Origin: Bacteroidota bacterium
Lineage (GTDB): Bacteria; Bacteroidota; Bacteroidia; Bacteroidales; FEN-979
Assembly (NCBI GenBank): GCA_014382125.1
Contig: JACNKI010000130.1
Coordinates: 1-40,000, forward strand
Reading direction: 5' to 3'
Length of the DNA stretch: 40,000 nucleotides
In this document: piece after piece, positions 3-35,992 of the stretch
Numbering within the stretch: the stretch's first letter is position 1
Layout of the letters: each line of letters opens with the position of its first letter
Program-made: the position numbers and the translations under genes
The notes under the pieces: model-generated
Seen by the model: only the letters and a program-made list of their open reading frames with translations
What the model was told of the DNA's origin: nothing
Database searches by the model: none

Positions 3-1583
3 TACAAGGGGGATTGTTTTTTACAAAAGACATGGTTCCGTCAGGCAAGGTGGTATGCCATGGAAGACCCGAATGATGCAGAGTGTGGTTATAGCGGGTT
101 TGGTTCAGGAAACCTTGATCCGAACTGCACATGGTATCAGCATGGCATGATGATCGGATTAATTACCGAATGTGCCGTGAATACGGCTATGAGAAATGAA
201 GTTGTTGGCAGGGATGACAGTGAGGAATATGTAAGATATACATTTTTTCCTAAATGTATGGAAGCCGGTATCGGTGTGATTGATTTTGCTGTTAACTATG
301 CATCTGAATATCTTCATGAGGCCACCCAGGTCAATAACGGGTACAATAAGATCCTGCCTGATAAAATAGTCTATGGCTATGATGAGAATGAGCCGTTGAG
401 GTATGAGGACAAGCCGAACAGGGCATATCATTCTGACCCGCATGTTTCGGGAAGTTTTATCGATGGATGGAGATCGATAAATTCTGGCTCATACCAGGAT
501 TATGCACCTGTTGATGGGCCTATCACAAGAATATCCAAATTTCTTGAATACCCGTTTTTAGTTCAACAGTTTGCCATAAACCAGATTTACGTCGATGAAC
601 GTGCAACACAGGCTCTTGATTCAGGTGAAGTCGTAATGGCCGAATCTACAACATTCCTTAGTGACAGGGTAAGGAAGATCGAGTCATTCGGTTCTCAACA
701 TATGCAATCAATAATTCCAGGAAAGACGGGGGTTTTCGGAGTTGACTCTATGAAAGCTCTTGAATGGAAAGTTGGAATTGCAGCCGGTAAAGGCGGTGGG
801 TTTTTACTTGAAGCTCAAGACATATCACTCGCCAAACTTATTCAGAAATGGTTCAAAGATACATTTGACAGTTATTCAACCGAGAATGACATCGTAGACA
901 TCATACCGGACACTCCTTTGCTTGGACAAGGCATTGTCGGGTTTTATGATCCTGATTATAAGGAGATCGGCATGTCGTTTATGATGGAAAAAGGCACGGG
1001 AGAGAGGATATTAAAAACGCTTGTTTTTGATGAACTGTTAAATTCCTTCAAGGGGGAATATACATTTGTTGAACCGCTTTATTTTAACATCGGAAAGAAA
1101 TTATACAGTTGTATGTATTACCTGGACGATGGGTTTGAATATAAGGTGAACAATAAAATATACCGTTACAATGCTGAAGGTGTCTGGAATAATTTCTTTG
1201 GTGATACGGCAACGGCAAAGATATCATTCATCGTGAACGGATTGGGGGAAGGGAAAAGCAATTTTGCTGGCGTGGAGAAGAAATTCAATGCGATGATGAT
1301 AGAGGCGAATTACAAGTCATTCTCAAGGATAATTTACCAGACACTTTACCAGTCAAGCACGAATACATTTGTAACAGCTTCGGGCGAGTTCTGGAAGAAT
1401 TCAGAGTACCTGGATCAGAAATGGCATATACCGATTGCCGTTCAGACATCGGCAGATGAAGTGCAATTTGATACAGGTAGTGAGATGAGTGGTACATATA
1501 TGCTCGTCACGCTGGAATATAATCTCGATGAAGAGTTAAATATAAGAGAAATTGAAACAGATTTTACACCATTAAAATCATAA
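3..1583 (+). CDS. virion structural protein, 5'-truncated by window edge (function unassigned)
   Basis: The reading frame is open from nt 3, with no stop upstream of the ATG at 60. It ends at TAA 1581-1583, and the next gene starts 4 nt later on the same strand. The virion role is inferred only from its position in the tail/ejection operon. Confidence 0.75.
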   Translation, partial: YKGDCFLQKTWFRQARWYAMEDPNDAECGYSGFGSGNLDPNCTWYQHGMMIGLITECAVNTAMRNEVVGRDDSEEYVRYTFFPKCMEAGIGVIDFAVNYASEYLHEATQVNNGYNKILPDKIVYGYDENEPLRYEDKPNRAYHSDPHVSGSFIDGWRSINSGSYQDYAPVDGPITRISKFLEYPFLVQQFAINQIYVDERATQALDSGEVVMAESTTFLSDRVRKIESFGSQHMQSIIPGKTGVFGVDSMKALEWKVGIAAGKGGGFLLEAQDISLAKLIQKWFKDTFDSYSTENDIVDIIPDTPLLGQGIVGFYDPDYKEIGMSFMMEKGTGERILKTLVFDELLNSFKGEYTFVEPLYFNIGKKLYSCMYYLDDGFEYKVNNKIYRYNAEGVWNNFFGDTATAKISFIVNGLGEGKSNFAGVEKKFNAMMIEANYKSFSRIIYQTLYQSSTNTFVTASGEFWKNSEYLDQKWHIPIAVQTSADEVQFDTGSEMSGTYMLVTLEYNLDEELNIREIETDFTPLKS

Positions 1584-29878: not shown

Positions 29879-30595
29879 TCACCCTTCATATATCAATATA
29901 TCAGGGGCAATTCCTCTGATCTTTTCGATCTCTATATCAATTTTGGTATCCCGGTAATCCATCCTTATCTCTTTGGCCTCAACGCTTGCCAACAGGCAAT
30001 CCATTTCATGGTCACGGGGATTGATGTGGATTTCAACTTCAAATTTCTTCTTCTCTCCGCCTTTGAAGATCGGCATATGCAGAACAAACGCCTTGGGGAT
30101 ATTGCTCTCTACGATCTGGTTCATCAGGTCACGCTTGTTTCCGACATCATCAGATTTGGATTCCATGTCTTTGTTTACTTTTCCTTTAAAGGCACGGAGT
30201 TCCGCAACGAGCTTCATGGCTATCGTACTATCTTCGAAGCACCAGCGATGCATTTTGATAAAATCAGAAAGCTCTCTCGGGTTCCTTTCAGTGGGTGTGT
30301 TGATACCGAAGGCAACGAAGTCTTCATGTAGTTCCATTGCACCGACAACATTCCCGGCATAGTAACTTGTCTCATTAAATTCAAGATCGATCCTCATCTT
30401 GTCTGACAGCCTGCTGATCTCTATATTTGCAGATAACTGGTCAATAGTTGCGATTCTCTTTTCGAGAAATCTCGATACCGTATCAATATTGCCATTGATT
30501 TGAAGCTTTTCCGGTTCACGGAGTTCTAATGCTTGTCCTTGTCTGATCTCTAAGGTTTCTGTACCTTCTTTTACTGTTACATTTAATTCTTCCAT
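29879..30595 (-). CDS. hypothetical protein (238 aa), last gene of - strand operon
   Basis: The ORF has an ATG start and is followed 20 nt later by the terminator. No motif was recognised. Confidence 0.8.
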   Translation of the reverse strand: MEELNVTVKEGTETLEIRQGQALELREPEKLQINGNIDTVSRFLEKRIATIDQLSANIEISRLSDKMRIDLEFNETSYYAGNVVGAMELHEDFVAFGINTPTERNPRELSDFIKMHRWCFEDSTIAMKLVAELRAFKGKVNKDMESKSDDVGNKRDLMNQIVESNIPKAFVLHMPIFKGGEKKKFEVEIHINPRDHEMDCLLASVEAKEIRMDYRDTKIDIEIEKIRGIAPDILIYEG

Positions 30596-30613: not shown

Positions 30614-30805
30614 TTAATGATTTGATTTTATTTCTTTACCTTTTATATCAAAAAAGATCTTTAATCCGAATATTCTATAATATAATCCTTCCTGATATTT
30701 ATTACAATTTTTACAAAAACGTACAGTAGCGGTTAGTATTCTTGTATCGCTTCTGTAATTAACCCATCCGTAAGTGAATTCATGTTTATGAAACATTTTT
30801 CTCAT
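30614..30805 (-). CDS. hypothetical small protein with single CxxC (63 aa)
   Basis: The ATG at 30805 sits in an ATGA overlap with the upstream mini-gene stop. The protein contains RFCKNCNKY. Confidence 0.55.
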   Translation of the reverse strand: MRKMFHKHEFTYGWVNYRSDTRILTATVRFCKNCNKYQEGLYYRIFGLKIFFDIKGKEIKSNH

Positions 30806-30951
30806 ACAAATTTATTTTTACAATTTGAACATTCGTATACTTCTATCCATGTGGTGTTGATTAATTCGGAATGTGAATAAGCTACAAATCCGGCACCGCA
30901 TTTTGGACAGTTATGAAATATTTGTTTAAGATATTTTATAAATTTTCTCAT
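30802..30951 (-). CDS. zinc-ribbon mini-protein (49 aa, not in ORF track)
   Basis: Manual translation gives MRKFIKYLKQIFHNCPKCGAGFVAYSHSELINTTWIEVYECSNCKNKFV, with CPKC and CSNC pairs. ATGA overlaps occur at both ends (30948-30951 and 30802-30805). Confidence 0.65.
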   Translation of the reverse strand: MRKFIKYLKQIFHNCPKCGAGFVAYSHSELINTTWIEVYECSNCKNKFV

Positions 30952-31541
30952 GGAATATAACAGTTTGTGGGATTATCTTTATGAACGTCTATAAGAGGAC
31001 AGGTTTTCTCACGGAATTGCTTTAGGTTAAACGGATTCATAATGATATGGACTCCTTTTTTAGATGGTATCAATGTGACGAATTTGTTAATGCCTATCGG
31101 CTCACACTCCCTTTCGGCAATCAAGACCATATTGTTTATTTCCCGTTTATTCATTTTGGTATCAATATCCAATATCCATCGAGCCGGTTTCTCATTATGT
31201 CCTTGTCCGCATGCACGGTCATAGACCCGGTAACAATGGTTGTAACTCTGGTTCGACATTGAATTCGCCAGATTAACCATCGTTTTATAAGCCACAAGGC
31301 GATAACTCCGCCTGTTTAACCGGATACATGCCCTGGCGTTAAAGTGGTCGCAGAGAGCTTTAATTTGATCCATGTGTTCAATCAAATATTCTACGCTGTT
31401 GATGAAATAGTTCCGGATTACTTTTGATGCGGAACCGAGTTCTTTATGTTCTGACTTTCGTTGAAGGATTTGAAGGTAATAGAAGTCGTCTTCACTGTCG
31501 AATTCCAGCAGGGGGATGATTTTATTGAGATTATCAACCAT
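30948..31541 (-). CDS. hypothetical protein (197 aa), partner of the DUF5131-like gene
   Basis: The ATG start overlaps the upstream gene by 8 nt. The protein contains WILDIDTK and KKGVHIIMNPF, but no family could be assigned by eye. Confidence 0.75.
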   Translation of the reverse strand: MVDNLNKIIPLLEFDSEDDFYYLQILQRKSEHKELGSASKVIRNYFINSVEYLIEHMDQIKALCDHFNARACIRLNRRSYRLVAYKTMVNLANSMSNQSYNHCYRVYDRACGQGHNEKPARWILDIDTKMNKREINNMVLIAERECEPIGINKFVTLIPSKKGVHIIMNPFNLKQFREKTCPLIDVHKDNPTNCYIP

Positions 31542-32196
31542 TTTTTATTCTTGATAAGTTATTTTTTTGATGAATTGTCGTGTATTTTGATAACTCTGAA
31601 ATGAGCCTGTCAATCTTTTCTTTGGATGGTTCTGGTAATCCGTGTCCTTTACTATCAGCACCGATGTTTACTTGTTGTGGTTCACATATTTTTAACATCT
31701 CAATAAATTCCGGTAAATCAAAATCCATAATTGGTTCAATAGTAATATAGAGTGGGTGTCTAATCCATTTCATCTGATCTACCCTTTCAGTTGGAGTTGG
31801 ACAATTTCTCATAATATCTTTATAGTGACGGTTGGTTTCCAGAGTAACGCATACGCTGGATTCGTAAACGAGTATTCTGCGTATATTTTCGGGATTTTTA
31901 GTTTGAAATAAGTATTTATTAAGATCATATTTGCCACAATGTTGAAGAGTTTTTACAATCCAATCGTTTGGTATATCCGTTGCCCACATGTCACAACTTG
32001 ATCCAACGAAAATAAAATTATTCTCACCCAAATCTGTATTGAGTTCTTTTTCGTCAAAGCGAATTGGTTTTTGAGGAAATCGTTTCATATAACAATATGA
32101 ACATCCGTGGGGGCACATTCCTTTAACGGTATTCCAAGTATGGGTTATCCATCCTTGATACATATTTGATCCAATTTTTACTTTGTTTAATGACAT
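31534..32196 (-). CDS. DUF5131 (phage Gp37/Gp68)-like, radical-SAM-like CxxxCxxC protein
   Basis: The N-terminus WNTVKGMCPHGCSYCYM carries a CxxxCxxC motif at nt 32092-32115. It compares with the family pattern WNP..GC.....GC..CYA. This is followed by IFVGSSCDMW...IPNDWI...LFQTKNP, which resembles iFv.SmsDlf..vp...i...f.iLTKrp. Confidence 0.55.
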   Translation of the reverse strand: MSLNKVKIGSNMYQGWITHTWNTVKGMCPHGCSYCYMKRFPQKPIRFDEKELNTDLGENNFIFVGSSCDMWATDIPNDWIVKTLQHCGKYDLNKYLFQTKNPENIRRILVYESSVCVTLETNRHYKDIMRNCPTPTERVDQMKWIRHPLYITIEPIMDFDLPEFIEMLKICEPQQVNIGADSKGHGLPEPSKEKIDRLISELSKYTTIHQKNNLSRIKNG

Positions 32197-32920: not shown

Positions 32921-33312
32921 CGTTTTAATTTAAAAATTAATAGTTCTCTATAATAGTATTCTCTTCCCCTGATAACAATATCTTTAGGGTTGTAGGGCTT
33001 ATCCATTTTTGGTGTCTTCCAATCGAATGTGGCTTCCGGTTCAACAGCTTGTTCCGGTTCCGGTTTTTTTATCTTTTTGACATCGGTGAATGTGATGATA
33101 AGAAGGACTTCTTTCTCTTCATTCCAATCGATCTTTTTCAATATCTCCTTGTAATCAACTGATGTAACAGGATAATTTGATTTGGTAATTGCAACGAAAC
33201 TGTATTCTCTTTTTGGCAGCTGGTTTCCTATTAACGGTAGGATGTCATCGTATTCTTTTTCCGGAAGGATAACATACCAGATCTTCTCCGAGATCGCATT
33301 AAATAGTATCAT
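32890..33312 (-). CDS. hypothetical protein (140 aa)
   Basis: The ATG at 33312 overlaps the upstream stop, since the upstream gene ends at 33309. Confidence 0.65.
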   Translation of the reverse strand: MILFNAISEKIWYVILPEKEYDDILPLIGNQLPKREYSFVAITKSNYPVTSVDYKEILKKIDWNEEKEVLLIITFTDVKKIKKPEPEQAVEPEATFDWKTPKMDKPYNPKDIVIRGREYYYRELLIFKLKRWIRNLKIFR

Positions 33313-33527: not shown

Positions 33528-33778
33528 AATTTTATAACTCCGTCTGTTTCTGTTATTTTTATATAAATGCGTTTTTGAATCAGCCATGGGATCCATTTGT
33601 CCCAGAAATTCTTATCCACATAATGAGGTTCGTATTCTTCTGAATGGAACGTATGAACCCAGAATTTAAGGTTGTGGCGTAGCTTCCCTTTTGAAATGAA
33701 ATCAGACCTGTAAGCTATCCTTACATTCTTTGGCCTACAACTCAATTCCTTCTGATTCTTTGATTTGTCTAAGGCCAT
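33524..33778 (-). CDS. hypothetical protein (84 aa)
   Basis: The ORF has an ATG start and overlaps the end of the RuvC-like gene by 44 nt. Confidence 0.5.
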   Translation of the reverse strand: MALDKSKNQKELSCRPKNVRIAYRSDFISKGKLRHNLKFWVHTFHSEEYEPHYVDKNFWDKWIPWLIQKRIYIKITETDGVIKL

Positions 33779-34208
33779 AATGCATAATTAATACTGAGTC
33801 TGCGTTTTCTCTGGTTACATTGGAGTCCGGATAAAGCTGTTGTGCTTTCTCTTTGAGTTTATTCTTCCACATCGCAGGAGACATTTTCCCTCTTGTCCCG
33901 AGAGAATACCATCGTGTCCATGCTTGGGGGGTCACATATTGCGTTCTGAAACGCATGGCAACAGTGAACGCTTCAAGTCGTCCAAATGCTTGCCCGAATT
34001 TAAATGATGATGCAACGCCTTGTTTTGGCATACTATGAACTTTCTCTATGAAAACATAGATTAGGTATCCACTTAATGAAGTGCTTGTAAAGACGTTGAA
34101 AATATCGGTTATTGTTTTCGGCATATTGATAGCCTCTACAATTTCTTCCTTCCAAATGGCTATTCCGCCACTTACGCCAGGATCTATTCCTATGATTGCT
34201 TTTTTCAT
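33735..34208 (-). CDS. RuvC-like Holliday junction resolvase
   Basis: The N-terminal MKKAIIGIDPGVSGGIA carries the catalytic Asp motif. VFIEKV supplies the acidic residue. KQGVASSFKFGQAFG and ENADSVLIMHYG match the phage RuvC-type motif order. The start is in an ATGA overlap. Confidence 0.8.
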   Translation of the reverse strand: MKKAIIGIDPGVSGGIAIWKEEIVEAINMPKTITDIFNVFTSTSLSGYLIYVFIEKVHSMPKQGVASSFKFGQAFGRLEAFTVAMRFRTQYVTPQAWTRWYSLGTRGKMSPAMWKNKLKEKAQQLYPDSNVTRENADSVLIMHYGLRQIKESEGIEL

Positions 34209-34361: not shown

Positions 34362-34748
34362 CTATAACAATATACCTTGAGGTTTATAATTCGGATCAAG
34401 GAACTTCTGTAATCCGTAAGCGGATTTGCGGATAGCTGAAGCTCTTTCGAATAAAGATTTGATTTGTAATTCGATTATGTCCTTATTATATGATAAATAA
34501 TATCCTTTACTTGTCGCAATAACCGGCAAGATACCATTAACCCGTAAATAATTCACCATTTTACGAAGCCTTGGCCCGCTAAATTTTTCAACTTTGCATC
34601 GTGTTGCCATCTTCCTGCAAAGGTCATTGGAATAGATAGCGTTTTCCTGGTCAGCATGTTCTTGTAATATCTGTATTAAATTCGGAAGCATGGAAAATTC
34701 ATCTTCCGACAACTCTTTTGTAACCTCTTCAAAATTTGTTACTGTCAT
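34362..34748 (-). CDS. winged-helix DNA-binding protein (tentative)
   Basis: SGPRLRKMVNYLRVNGILPVIATSKGYYL is typical of a wHTH recognition helix plus wing (SG.rlR..v..Lr..G.pI.s...GYy). The start is in an ATGA overlap. Confidence 0.5.
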   Translation of the reverse strand: MTVTNFEEVTKELSEDEFSMLPNLIQILQEHADQENAIYSNDLCRKMATRCKVEKFSGPRLRKMVNYLRVNGILPVIATSKGYYLSYNKDIIELQIKSLFERASAIRKSAYGLQKFLDPNYKPQGILL

Positions 34749-35095: not shown

Positions 35096-35992
35096 CTAAT
35101 TCTCCAACTTGAACTTGTTGATCAGATAATCCGACAAAGTTACGTTATTCGGAACAATTAATGGAATATCTGTTTCGCCCGGTTTATGGAATTGTGTTCC
35201 CATATTATATAGCTTCCAGAGATTGTTCACATTTTCCGGATTCTCACGGAAATCACGGACATATCGTTCAGTAAATTTGGTGATCTGGGTTTGGCTCAAA
35301 GCATAGTGTTTCTCTGTACGTAGAATATCTTTACCAATACGCAGGACACTCATTTCTCCTATGATCTCGCATGCTTTCTGGTAATTGACTGATGTCTCTT
35401 TCATTCGTTTGATGATTTTTAAGTCCCTTGCACGTTTCAGTTCATGTTCTGCGACCCAATCACCGACGACCTCAATCATCTTTGTAATGTTCGGAATCTT
35501 GTTGTATTCTTCTCCATATGTGGACATGACATTTTTAATCCCATAGATAGACATGTTCTTGCAAAGTTTGATGTGTTGTCCGTAAGAGATCTGTATACCT
35601 CTCTGGTGGAACGAGATACCTACGGATCCAACGGATTCTTTTGATGCACCCTGTTTAAGATGGATAGAACCGATGATACGCCTTAGCAGCCACGACTGAA
35701 GAGATTTTTCTCCAAAGTCTTTTTCCATATAAGGAAGACGTGAAGCTCCACGGAAAGATTTCTCACCACCATCAGAGGCATAGATTTTCTGAACATCATA
35801 CTGGACATTCATACTTGTCATCTTTGCAATGATCATTCCAAATAGTTCATGGTGTTCTACACCAAATATCGGCTTATTACCGGAATTTCTCTCACTTGCT
35901 GTTTGTTCAAGTTCGTCTAATGTCAATACTTCTACCGGATTTGCTTTAAAATCCAGAACTTTTTTAATTGTTTTTTTGGGTTTGCTTGTCAT
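35096..35992 (-). CDS. DUF932-like phage/plasmid protein (tentative)
   Basis: The ORF is 298 aa. The core VGISFHQRGIQISYGQHIKLCKNMSIYG resembles the DUF932 pattern (l.NShDgs.a..i..G....vC.Ngm). Confidence 0.4.
   Translation of the reverse strand: MTSKPKKTIKKVLDFKANPVEVLTLDELEQTASERNSGNKPIFGVEHHELFGMIIAKMTSMNVQYDVQKIYASDGGEKSFRGASRLPYMEKDFGEKSLQSWLLRRIIGSIHLKQGASKESVGSVGISFHQRGIQISYGQHIKLCKNMSIYGIKNVMSTYGEEYNKIPNITKMIEVVGDWVAEHELKRARDLKIIKRMKETSVNYQKACEIIGEMSVLRIGKDILRTEKHYALSQTQITKFTERYVRDFRENPENVNNLWKLYNMGTQFHKPGETDIPLIVPNNVTLSDYLINKFKLEN

What the first reader, a model, noticed from the sequence alone, without database searches (positions are those of the whole stretch)
30614..32196. Four-gene cassette: DUF5131/radical-SAM-like protein, an uncharacterised partner and two Zn-binding mini-proteins
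Seen: the genes at 31534-32196, 30948-31541, 30802-30951 and 30614-30805 are linked by 8-nt, ATGA and ATGA overlaps. They are therefore almost certainly co-translated. The first carries CPHGCSYC (CxxxCxxC) in a WN..G.C...GC..CY context, and the mini-genes carry CxxC pairs.

Established: CxxxCxxC is the radical-SAM Fe-S motif. Gp37/Gp68 (DUF5131) proteins are widespread in phages, have no demonstrated function, and tend to occur with a conserved partner gene.

Inference: the cassette may be a nucleic-acid or nucleotide modification module, either for counter-defence or for DNA hypermodification. The 197-aa partner has WILDIDTK and GVHII motifs, which hint at an acidic metal site, but I could not place it in a family.
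Basis: partly seen in the sequence, partly recalled or inferred. Interest (0 to 1): 0.6.

Follow-up and report, generated by a model that had tools for sequence, protein, structure and literature searches.

The report
Four packed phage genes, not a cassette
Four overlapping genes in a 43-kb Bacteroidota phage are real, but they are unrelated neighbours rather than a conserved module: a stand-alone radical-SAM enzyme resembling a DNA-repair lyase, a widespread uncharacterised phage protein with primase-like catalytic motifs, and two tiny genes found only in this phage.

Summary
The four minus-strand ORFs and their 8-nt/ATGA/ATGA overlaps are exactly as described. The first protein reaches Pfam DUF5131 (33 bits, cut-off 28.9). 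C28, C32 and C35 are invariant in its family, and its model most resembles spore photoproduct lyase.

Of 80 viral loci carrying the 197-aa protein, none has the radical-SAM gene or either mini-gene within 6 kb. The reverse test is also 0 of 80. The closest relatives (73% and 69% identity) have different neighbours, and five complete partner-bearing genomes lack DUF5131 altogether. ATGA-type overlaps run through the whole operon, so they do not delimit a unit.

The 197-aa protein is not TcmP. It belongs to a large stand-alone phage family (phrog_14949; 2,206 representatives) with a confident fold that has no PDB neighbour. Invariant DxD, GxH and HKDN motifs align to Prim-Pol primases about as well as two true primase families align to each other. 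Elsewhere it sits beside PNKP, ligases and replication genes.

The mini-genes are ORFans of this phage.

This scan has found DUF5131+TcmP pairs on other DNA. Here DUF5131 travels alone.

The parts
31534..32196 (-). Short (220 aa; alternative start M12 at 32163 gives 209 aa) stand-alone DUF5131-type radical-SAM protein. The cluster motif C28-x3-C32-x2-C35 lies at 32092-32115.
   Evidence: Pfam DUF5131 33 bits, cut-off 28.9, profile positions 6-125 of 243; Radical_SAM 14.4 bits, below cut-off. phrog_2045. Cys invariant in 30 and 34 homologs. 34 of 34 members hit DUF5131 and 17 of 34 hit Radical_SAM. AF2 model pLDDT 93.4. Best PDB match is spore photoproduct lyase 4fhc, E 1.7e-5, TMq 0.64.
30948..31541 (-). 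197-aa member of a large stand-alone phage family (phrog_14949) with no Pfam family. Candidate AEP/Prim-Pol-like nucleotidyltransferase. Motif I D125-x-D127 at 31161-31169; motif II G163-x-H165 at 31047-31055; motif III H187-K-D-N190 at 30972-30983.
   Evidence: phrog_14949 E 8e-27. No Pfam or NCBIfam hit. 2,206 representatives at 50% clustering. Invariant residues. AF2 model pLDDT 95.2. No PDB fold match and no PDB sequence match. hhalign to Prim-Pol P 4.6e-4, first of 56 profiles.
30802..30951 (-). 49-aa ORFan with two CxxC knuckles (C15/C18 and C41/C44); probable zinc ribbon.
   Evidence: Only sub-threshold hits to many zinc-ribbon Pfam models, the best being Ogr_Delta at 21.2 bits against a cut-off of 26.3. 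No relatives in the 160 loci or in the phage database. Found only in near-identical copies of this phage.
30614..30805 (-). 63-aa ORFan with a single CxxC (C31/C34) plus H6 and H8; function unknown, and coding status supported only by packing and by its presence in strains.
   Evidence: No family hit. No tblastn match in phages. Cluster of two sequences, both from this phage. One synonymous and one non-synonymous difference between strains, which is uninformative.

Best explanation
The four ORFs are genuine, tightly packed genes in the long early (replication/recombination) operon of a roughly 43-kb crAss-like Bacteroidota phage. They are a chance juxtaposition of independently mobile accessory genes, not a conserved functional cassette.

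(1) Gene 1 is a short, TcmP-less member of the DUF5131 radical-SAM subgroup. Shown: the motif, the family membership and the fold. Inferred: it binds a [4Fe-4S] cluster through C28/C32/C35, cleaves SAM to a 5'-deoxyadenosyl radical and, like its nearest structural relative spore photoproduct lyase, acts on DNA or a nucleotide. This would be repair or alteration of a base rather than a multi-enzyme hypermodification pathway.

(2) Gene 2 belongs to a separate, very widespread phage family. Shown: it is stand-alone, its fold is confident, D-x-D, G-x-H and H-K-D-N are invariant, they lie on a C-terminal beta-alpha-beta-beta-alpha-beta unit, and its best profile match is Prim-Pol. Inferred: it is a minimal AEP-like nucleotidyltransferase that uses the acidic residues for two-metal catalysis and the histidine for the incoming nucleotide. 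It would make or extend short nucleic-acid stretches, either priming for the phage's DnaB-type helicase or filling ends alongside PNKP and ligases, as in the phages where it sits next to them.

(3) Genes 3 and 4 are lineage-specific ORFans. The 49-aa protein is probably a zinc ribbon.
For: No conserved cassette:
- 0 of 80 partner loci carry the DUF5131 gene or either mini-gene within 6 kb, and 0 of 80 DUF5131 loci carry the partner or mini-genes.
- The immediate neighbours of DUF5131 are singletons in 45-46 of 80 loci.
- The closest homologs have different neighbours.
- 0 of 5 complete partner-bearing genomes have DUF5131 anywhere. 1 of 5 DUF5131 genomes has a distant partner-like ORF, about 21 kb away.
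- Related Bacteroides phages have the flanking DUF2303 gene in a recombination block without any of the four genes.
- Overlaps are pervasive in the operon.

Gene 1. RadicalSAM.org places DUF5131 in megacluster 5-2, beside spore photoproduct lyase in 5-3 (PMC9477430).

Gene 2:
- Invariant motifs and secondary-structure order.
- hhalign to Prim-Pol scores 31.8, P 4.6e-4. The 52 control profiles have mean 14.2 and maximum 27.1. Decoys GGDEF and NTP_transf_2 score 13.2 and 14.2. The true AEP pair Prim-Pol against BT4734_N scores 35.5.
- Recurrent neighbours are PNKP (immediately downstream in 8 loci), RNA ligase, DNA ligase, metallophosphoesterase, DnaB and Pol A. In Cellulophaga phage phi17:2 it is followed by a CCA-type nucleotidyltransferase, a PARP-like gene and a ligase.
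- This phage has a DnaB helicase but no DnaG/TOPRIM or Prim-Pol hit.

Genes 3 and 4.
Against: Translational coupling of the four genes is compatible with co-function in this one lineage, and lack of conservation elsewhere cannot exclude that.

The AEP reading of gene 2 is not proven:
- hhalign probability is only 33%.
- The comparison with BT4734_N is not significant (score 17.1).
- There is no Pfam hit.
- Foldseek showed no AEP structure among its 50 listed PDB matches, the best of which had E 0.27.
- Cellulophaga phage phi17:2 has a bona fide Prim-Pol as well as the homolog, so the family is not simply 'the' primase.

Gene 1 matches only the N-terminal half of the DUF5131 model. No substrate is known for any DUF5131 protein, so 'acts on DNA' rests on structural neighbourhood alone.
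Confidence: 0.72

Rival explanations
1. One reading: the four genes are one co-translated nucleic-acid or nucleotide modification module. The radical-SAM enzyme would work with a dedicated partner and two zinc-binding accessory proteins, serving counter-defence or DNA hypermodification, at least in this phage lineage.
For: There are 8-nt and ATGA overlaps, and the order is identical in four strain copies. Small zinc-ribbon ORFs are mildly enriched within two genes of both families (4.2% against 0.8%, and 5.5% against 2.1%). DNA methylases recur in DUF5131 neighbourhoods.
Against: Co-occurrence is 0 of 80 in each direction, and 0 of 5 at whole-genome level. The closest homologs of each gene have other neighbours. 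Overlaps occur throughout the operon. The strain copies are near-identical genomes, so shared order carries no information. The zinc-ribbon enrichment involves only 11 loci per set, several of them duplicates, with unrelated sequences. It fits regions rich in small accessory ORFs.
Confidence: 0.07
2. The 197-aa family is not AEP-derived. It would be a new fold of metal-dependent enzyme working in RNA or DNA end repair, for example a phosphoesterase or end-modifying enzyme that cooperates with PNKP and ligases against host anticodon nucleases or restriction breaks. The Prim-Pol resemblance would then be motif convergence.
For: No PDB fold match at E below 0.1 despite pLDDT 95. No Pfam or PDB sequence match. 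PNKP is the commonest immediate downstream neighbour, and RNA ligase, metallophosphoesterase and a CCA-type nucleotidyltransferase lie nearby in other phages. The PNKP/HAD profile was the second-best hhalign score at 27.1, through a DxD strand.
Against: All three motifs are colinear with Prim-Pol at the right spacing. The score equals that between true AEP families, while GGDEF and Pol-beta decoys score at background. The strand-helix order after the DxD strand is RRM-like, not HAD-like.
Confidence: 0.3
3. The DUF5131 gene is a phage-borne defence or superinfection-exclusion gene, or an anti-defence gene, related to the candidate defence systems PDC-M30 and PDC-M41, rather than a DNA repair or modification enzyme for the phage's own genome.
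For: Weak PADLOC hits to PDC-M41B and PDC-M30B (E 1e-6 and 6e-6). The gene is a free-roaming accessory gene in proviruses and temperate-type regions among methylases, NinG and SSB.
Against: The A component (TcmP-type) of those candidate systems is absent from the cassette, the genome bin and ten related viral records. Those systems are themselves untested candidates.
Confidence: 0.12

Closest known systems
DUF5131 / 'phage Gp37/Gp68' three-Cys radical-SAM subgroup (Pfam PF07505; RadicalSAM.org megacluster 5-2), usually paired with TcmP (NCBIfam TIGR04474)
   Same: Gene 1 passes the Pfam cut-off. The CxxxCxxC is invariant in a W-N-x-x-x-G-x-C-x-H-x-C-x-Y-C-Y context. It is a phage-borne accessory gene.
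   Different: It is shorter (about 215-220 aa, against a 243-position model of which only the N-terminal half aligns). It has no TcmP partner in the phage, the genome bin or ten related viral genomes, and no conserved neighbour at all.
Spore photoproduct lyase (SplB; PDB 4fhc)
   Same: It is the best structural match of the gene 1 model (E 1.7e-5, TMq 0.64). Both have a radical-SAM partial barrel with an N-terminal cluster loop. SPL lies in the neighbouring megacluster in RadicalSAM.org.
   Different: Sequence identity is about 12%. Gene 1 is 120 residues shorter (TMt 0.44), and it gives no hit to a solved structure by sequence. A DNA substrate is inferred, not shown.
Prim-Pol clade of archaeo-eukaryotic primases (Pfam PF09250; e.g. 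plasmid pRN1 ORF904, phage and plasmid primase-polymerases, LigD polymerase domain)
   Same: Gene 2 has colinear hhhDhD, sxGxH and hD-type motifs on a beta-alpha-beta-beta-alpha-beta unit preceded by an alpha/beta unit. Its best profile-profile match is at the level seen between true AEP families. Its neighbours elsewhere (phosphoesterase or PNKP plus ligase) recall the polymerase, phosphoesterase and ligase triad of LigD. The LigD analogy is from my own knowledge.
   Different: There is no Pfam hit. hhalign probability is 33%. No AEP appears among the listed Foldseek PDB matches. The protein is only about 197 aa, with no helicase, PriCT or zinc domain fused. The N-terminal half does not align.
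PADLOC candidate defence systems PDC-M30 and PDC-M41
   Same: Gene 1 gives weak hits to the B components.
   Different: The A component is absent, and the context is a lytic-type phage operon rather than a bacterial defence island.

Membership tests
DUF5131 (PF07505) | Score at or above the Pfam gathering cut-off | tested here: met
   33.0 bits against 28.9. 34 of 34 subfamily members hit the model, best E 3.6e-14.
DUF5131 (PF07505) | Conserved three-Cys motif CxxxCxxC | tested here: met
   C28, C32 and C35 are invariant in 30 and 34 homologs down to 43% identity.
DUF5131 (PF07505) | Full-length match to the family model | tested here: not met
   Only profile positions 6-125 of 243 align. PADLOC PDC-M41B aligns over positions 8-161 of 241.
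DUF5131 + TcmP pair (TIGR04474) | A TcmP partner gene adjacent or in the same genome | tested here: not met
   No NCBIfam hit for the three downstream proteins. No TIGR04474 match in the genome bin or in 10 related viral records.
Radical SAM superfamily (PF04055) | Pfam cut-off | tested here: not met
   14.4 bits against 29.5 for the window's protein. 17 of 34 relatives reach E below 0.01.
Radical SAM superfamily (PF04055) | Partial TIM-barrel fold like solved radical-SAM enzymes | tested here: met
   The model has pLDDT 93.4. The top 30 Foldseek PDB matches are all radical-SAM enzymes: SPL, SkfB, SuiB, LipA, viperin, DesII and Mmp10.
Radical SAM superfamily (PF04055) | [4Fe-4S] cluster binding and reductive SAM cleavage | not testable with these tools
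   Needs anaerobic reconstitution, EPR or UV-vis spectroscopy, and a 5'-deoxyadenosine assay.
AEP / Prim-Pol (PF09250) | Match to the family model | tested here: not met
   No Pfam hit at E up to 1 for the protein or for any of 50 relatives. Six-frame search of the genome bin with PF09250 found nothing.
AEP / Prim-Pol (PF09250) | Three colinear catalytic motifs: DxD/E, sxH and hD | tested here: met
   D125 and D127 are invariant, G163 and H165 are invariant, and D189 is at least 90% conserved with K188 and N190 invariant. The motifs align in register with Prim-Pol motifs.
AEP / Prim-Pol (PF09250) | Significant profile-profile similarity | tested here: inconclusive
   hhalign probability 33%, P 4.6e-4, score 31.8. 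This ranks first of 56 profiles and compares with 35.5 for Prim-Pol against BT4734_N. The comparison with BT4734_N itself scores only 17.1.
AEP / Prim-Pol (PF09250) | Structural similarity to solved AEP domains | tested here: not met
   No AEP among the 50 listed Foldseek PDB matches; best E 0.27. A direct superposition could not be run because coordinates are not exposed.
Zinc ribbon (49-aa protein) | Two CxxC knuckles and a match to a zinc-ribbon model | tested here: inconclusive
   Two CxxC pairs lie 23 residues apart. There are many sub-threshold hits, the best at 21.2 bits against a cut-off of 26.3. There are no homologs with which to test conservation.
PADLOC PDC-M30 / PDC-M41 | Both A and B components present | tested here: not met
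   Only weak B hits for gene 1; nothing for the other three proteins.

The most novel reading that the evidence does not exclude
The 197-aa protein represents an unrecognised clade of minimal, single-domain AEP-type primase-polymerases: about 200 aa, with more than 2,000 sequence clusters in Bacteroidota and other phages, and no Pfam family or solved structure. Phages would deploy it either as their only primase beside a DnaB helicase, as may be the case here, or as the polymerase arm of a portable PNKP, phosphoesterase and ligase break-repair kit analogous to bacterial LigD.
Probability: 0.3. Interest if true: 0.6.

Novelty: new variant of a known kind. Interest (0 to 1): 0.33.

Why it matters
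As a cassette the finding does not hold up, which saves effort on a supposed hypermodification module. Two by-products are useful.

First, DUF5131 radical-SAM enzymes are usually discussed as obligate TcmP partners. Here there is a large short subfamily that travels alone in phages. Any model of DUF5131 chemistry must therefore allow the enzyme to work without TcmP.

Second, the 197-aa family is abundant. It folds confidently into something with no solved relative, carries an invariant two-acid-plus-histidine site, and keeps company with PNKP, ligases and replisome genes. It is a cheap, well-defined target for biochemistry that could add a minimal primase or repair polymerase to the phage toolkit.

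Tried and rejected
- TcmP identity for the 197-aa protein: no NCBIfam or six-frame hit.
- Fused domains as functional clues: ten longer family members have no Pfam domain in their extensions.
- PDB by sequence: nothing for either family.
- HAD-type phosphatase reading of the DxD strand: PNKP was the second-best hhalign score, but the secondary-structure order is wrong for HAD.
- Pol-beta nucleotidyltransferase and GGDEF-palm readings: background hhalign scores.
- Anchoring on the flanking genes to find syntenic relatives in IMG/VR: no relatives found. The annotated phage collection gave Bacteroides phages lacking all four genes.
- dN/dS on the mini-genes using strain variants: too few substitutions.
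- A zinc-ribbon partner for a primase-like core: enrichment is weak and not specific.
- Literature: no functional paper on DUF5131/PF07505 in the searchable library. One search was swamped by an unrelated acronym.
- Base composition: the mini-gene region is slightly AT-richer (GC 0.31-0.34 against 0.36-0.42), which is not decisive.
Full report
**Observation**

The four minus-strand ORFs exist exactly where stated. They are 31534-32196 (220 aa), 30948-31541 (197 aa), 30802-30951 (49 aa) and 30614-30805 (63 aa). They are joined by an 8-nt overlap and two ATGA overlaps.

CPHGCSYC, WILDIDTK and GVHII are all present. The 49-aa protein has two CxxC pairs. The 63-aa protein has only one, plus two N-terminal histidines.

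The overlaps are real, but they do not set these four genes apart. The same operon shows 4-nt overlaps at 33309-33312, 34205-34208 and 34745-34748, and longer overlaps elsewhere.

The window is contig C231 (43,043 bp) of a 2.7-Mb metagenome bin. The same roughly 42-45 kb sequence recurs as separate contigs in other samples, with identical gene order. The contig carries a crAss-type muzzle-like protein, a 6,789-aa ORF and a DnaB-type helicase. So it is a phage genome rather than part of the host chromosome.

**Gene 1**

The 220-aa protein reaches Pfam DUF5131 at 33 bits (cut-off 28.9), though over profile positions 6-125 of 243 only. Radical_SAM stays below its threshold.

All 34 aligned relatives hit DUF5131, and half also hit Radical_SAM. 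C28, C32 and C35 are invariant down to 43% identity. H30 and a fourth cysteine, C87, are at least 90% conserved.

The family is large, with more than 4,500 hits. The AlphaFold model is confident (pLDDT 93.4). All of its best 30 PDB matches are radical-SAM enzymes, led by spore photoproduct lyase (E 1.7e-5, TMq 0.64). That agrees with RadicalSAM.org, which places DUF5131 in megacluster 5-2 next to spore photoproduct lyase in 5-3 (PMC9477430).

PADLOC gives weak hits to the B components of the candidate systems PDC-M41 and PDC-M30. The searchable library holds no functional study of DUF5131.

**Is there a cassette?**

- I fetched 80 viral loci encoding relatives of the 197-aa protein, each with 6-kb flanks. 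None encodes a relative of gene 1 or of either mini-protein.
- I fetched 80 viral loci encoding relatives of gene 1 (41-72% identity). None encodes the 197-aa protein or the mini-proteins.
- After clustering all neighbours, the genes immediately upstream and downstream of the DUF5131 gene are singletons in 46 and 45 of 80 loci. The most frequent genes in the region are DNA methylases, SSB, terminase, DnaA/DnaC-like proteins, ASCH and NinG, at scattered offsets.
- The closest known relative of gene 1 (73% identity) is followed by two small ORFs and a PAPS-reductase-family gene. A 46% relative follows a 991-aa helicase/primase-like gene.
- The closest relative of gene 2 (69% identity) sits among small ORFs and homing-endonuclease genes.
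- At whole-genome level, none of five partner-bearing phage genomes (four estimated 99-100% complete, one a deposited complete genome) has DUF5131. One of five DUF5131-bearing genomes has a distant partner-like ORF, about 21 kb away.
- Bacteroides phages that share the flanking DUF2303/YfdQ-like gene have it in a NinB, SSB, Sak4, NinG and helicase block, with none of the four genes.
- TcmP, the partner expected for DUF5131, is absent from the three downstream proteins, from the whole genome bin and from ten related viral records.

Earlier follow-ups in this scan found DUF5131+TcmP pairs on many other genomes. This subfamily is the solo form.

**Gene 2**

The 197-aa protein matches phrog_14949, of unknown function (E 8e-27), and no Pfam or NCBIfam model. 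A full-library profile search finds 2,206 representatives at 50% clustering. Almost all are stand-alone proteins of 190-210 aa. The few longer members carry no recognisable extra domain.

Invariant positions include D125, D127, G163, H165, K188 and N190, with H187 and D189 at least 90% conserved, plus three arginines in the N-terminal half.

The model is very confident (pLDDT 95.2, pTM 0.88). It has an N-terminal alpha/beta unit followed by a beta-alpha-beta-beta-alpha-beta unit. That unit carries the DxD at the end of its first strand, GxH at the start of its third strand, and HKDN at the last strands.

Foldseek finds no PDB neighbour (best E 0.27). In BFVD it finds only uncharacterised phage proteins, with TM up to 0.81.

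The motifs and their spacing recalled Prim-Pol primases. I treated that as a lead and tested it as follows.

- I took 12 PF09250 domains from genomes of the same phylum, aligned them, and ran hhalign against the family alignment.
- The result was score 31.8, P 4.6e-4 and probability 33%. Motifs I and II were in register, and motif III joined under a relaxed alignment.
- Against 52 unrelated phage-protein profiles, the scores averaged 14.2 (SD 3.1). The maximum was 27.1, from PNKP's HAD-type DxD strand.
- The decoy families GGDEF and Pol-beta NTP_transf_2 scored 13.2 and 14.2. The two genuine AEP families, Prim-Pol and BT4734-like_N, scored 35.5 against each other. The family against BT4734-like_N scored only 17.1.

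So the similarity to Prim-Pol is as strong as a true inter-family AEP signal in this set-up. By hhalign's own probability, by Pfam and by Foldseek it remains unproven.

Context gives mixed support. Recurrent neighbours elsewhere are PNKP (immediately downstream in 8 loci), metallophosphoesterase, RNA ligase, DNA ligase, DnaB, a DEAD helicase and Pol A. In Cellulophaga phage phi17:2 the homolog is followed by a CCA-type nucleotidyltransferase, a PARP-like gene and a ligase. This phage has DnaB but no DnaG/TOPRIM or Prim-Pol hit. Cellulophaga phage phi17:2, however, has a true Prim-Pol as well as the homolog.

**Genes 3 and 4**

Neither mini-protein has a relative in the 160 loci or in the phage database. 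Both occur only in near-identical copies of this phage.

The 49-aa protein gives many sub-threshold zinc-ribbon hits. Strain variants differ too little to test selection.

Small CxxC...CxxC ORFs are mildly enriched within two genes of both families, in 11 loci each with several duplicates. I read this as a property of regions rich in small accessory ORFs.

**Conclusion**

The four genes are a chance neighbourhood in a densely packed early operon.

- Gene 1 is a solo DUF5131 radical-SAM enzyme that probably acts on DNA or a nucleotide in the manner of its lyase relatives. This is inferred.
- Gene 2 is an independent, abundant phage enzyme, most likely an AEP-like nucleotidyltransferase used in priming or end repair. 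This is inferred, at roughly 55-60% odds.
- Genes 3 and 4 are ORFans.

Noticed in passing
window 6206-26575 (+): There is a single open reading frame of 6,789 aa, about half of the 43-kb phage genome. Earlier first-reader notes mention HEAxH and RNA-polymerase-like modules and terminal hydrophobic helices in it.
   Followed up: no
window 60-1583 (+); L185:301-1845 (-) = contig C231 40301-41845: The 507-aa protein matches the C-terminal part of the crAss-virus muzzle protein (PF25731, E 2e-12). A 514-aa DnaB-type helicase lies just beyond the window. No DnaG/TOPRIM, Prim-Pol or DNA polymerase was recognised on the contig among the genes and families tested.
   Followed up: partly
L002:1995-4970 (+), MT836525.1: In the closest DUF5131 relative in the annotated phage collection, the gene directly follows a 991-aa protein. 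Its C-terminal part reads like a BT4734/VirE-type primase domain (ALDFDHI ... GGTGYKAIILHD). So two different phages place a DUF5131 gene beside a primase-like gene. This was not tested statistically.
   Followed up: no
L027:6731-7633 and 7 further loci (partner family neighbourhoods): A PNKP-type kinase-phosphatase (AAA_33 + HAD_PNKP) lies immediately downstream of the 197-aa family gene in 8 of 80 viral loci. This is the most frequent immediate neighbour and points to nucleic-acid end repair.
   Followed up: partly
L163:1176-2018 (+): The 73%-identical DUF5131 homolog is followed, after two small ORFs, by a PAPS-reductase-family (PF01507) gene. That family is often seen in DNA-modification contexts.
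   Followed up: no
window 33735-34208 (-), 29879-30595 (-), 35096-35992 (-): The flanks hold a RuvC-like Holliday-junction resolvase (phrog_1770, E 3e-28), a DUF2303/YfdQ-like protein (phrog_11501, E 5e-65) and a DUF3871-like protein. The four genes are therefore embedded in a recombination/replication operon.
   Followed up: partly
G160:C1:9335-9559 (viral record behind L138): A 235-aa ORF matches only the C-terminal catalytic unit (profile positions 113-192) of the 197-aa family (E 1.4e-7). This suggests the DxD/GxH/HKDN unit is the conserved core and that more distant relatives exist.
   Followed up: no
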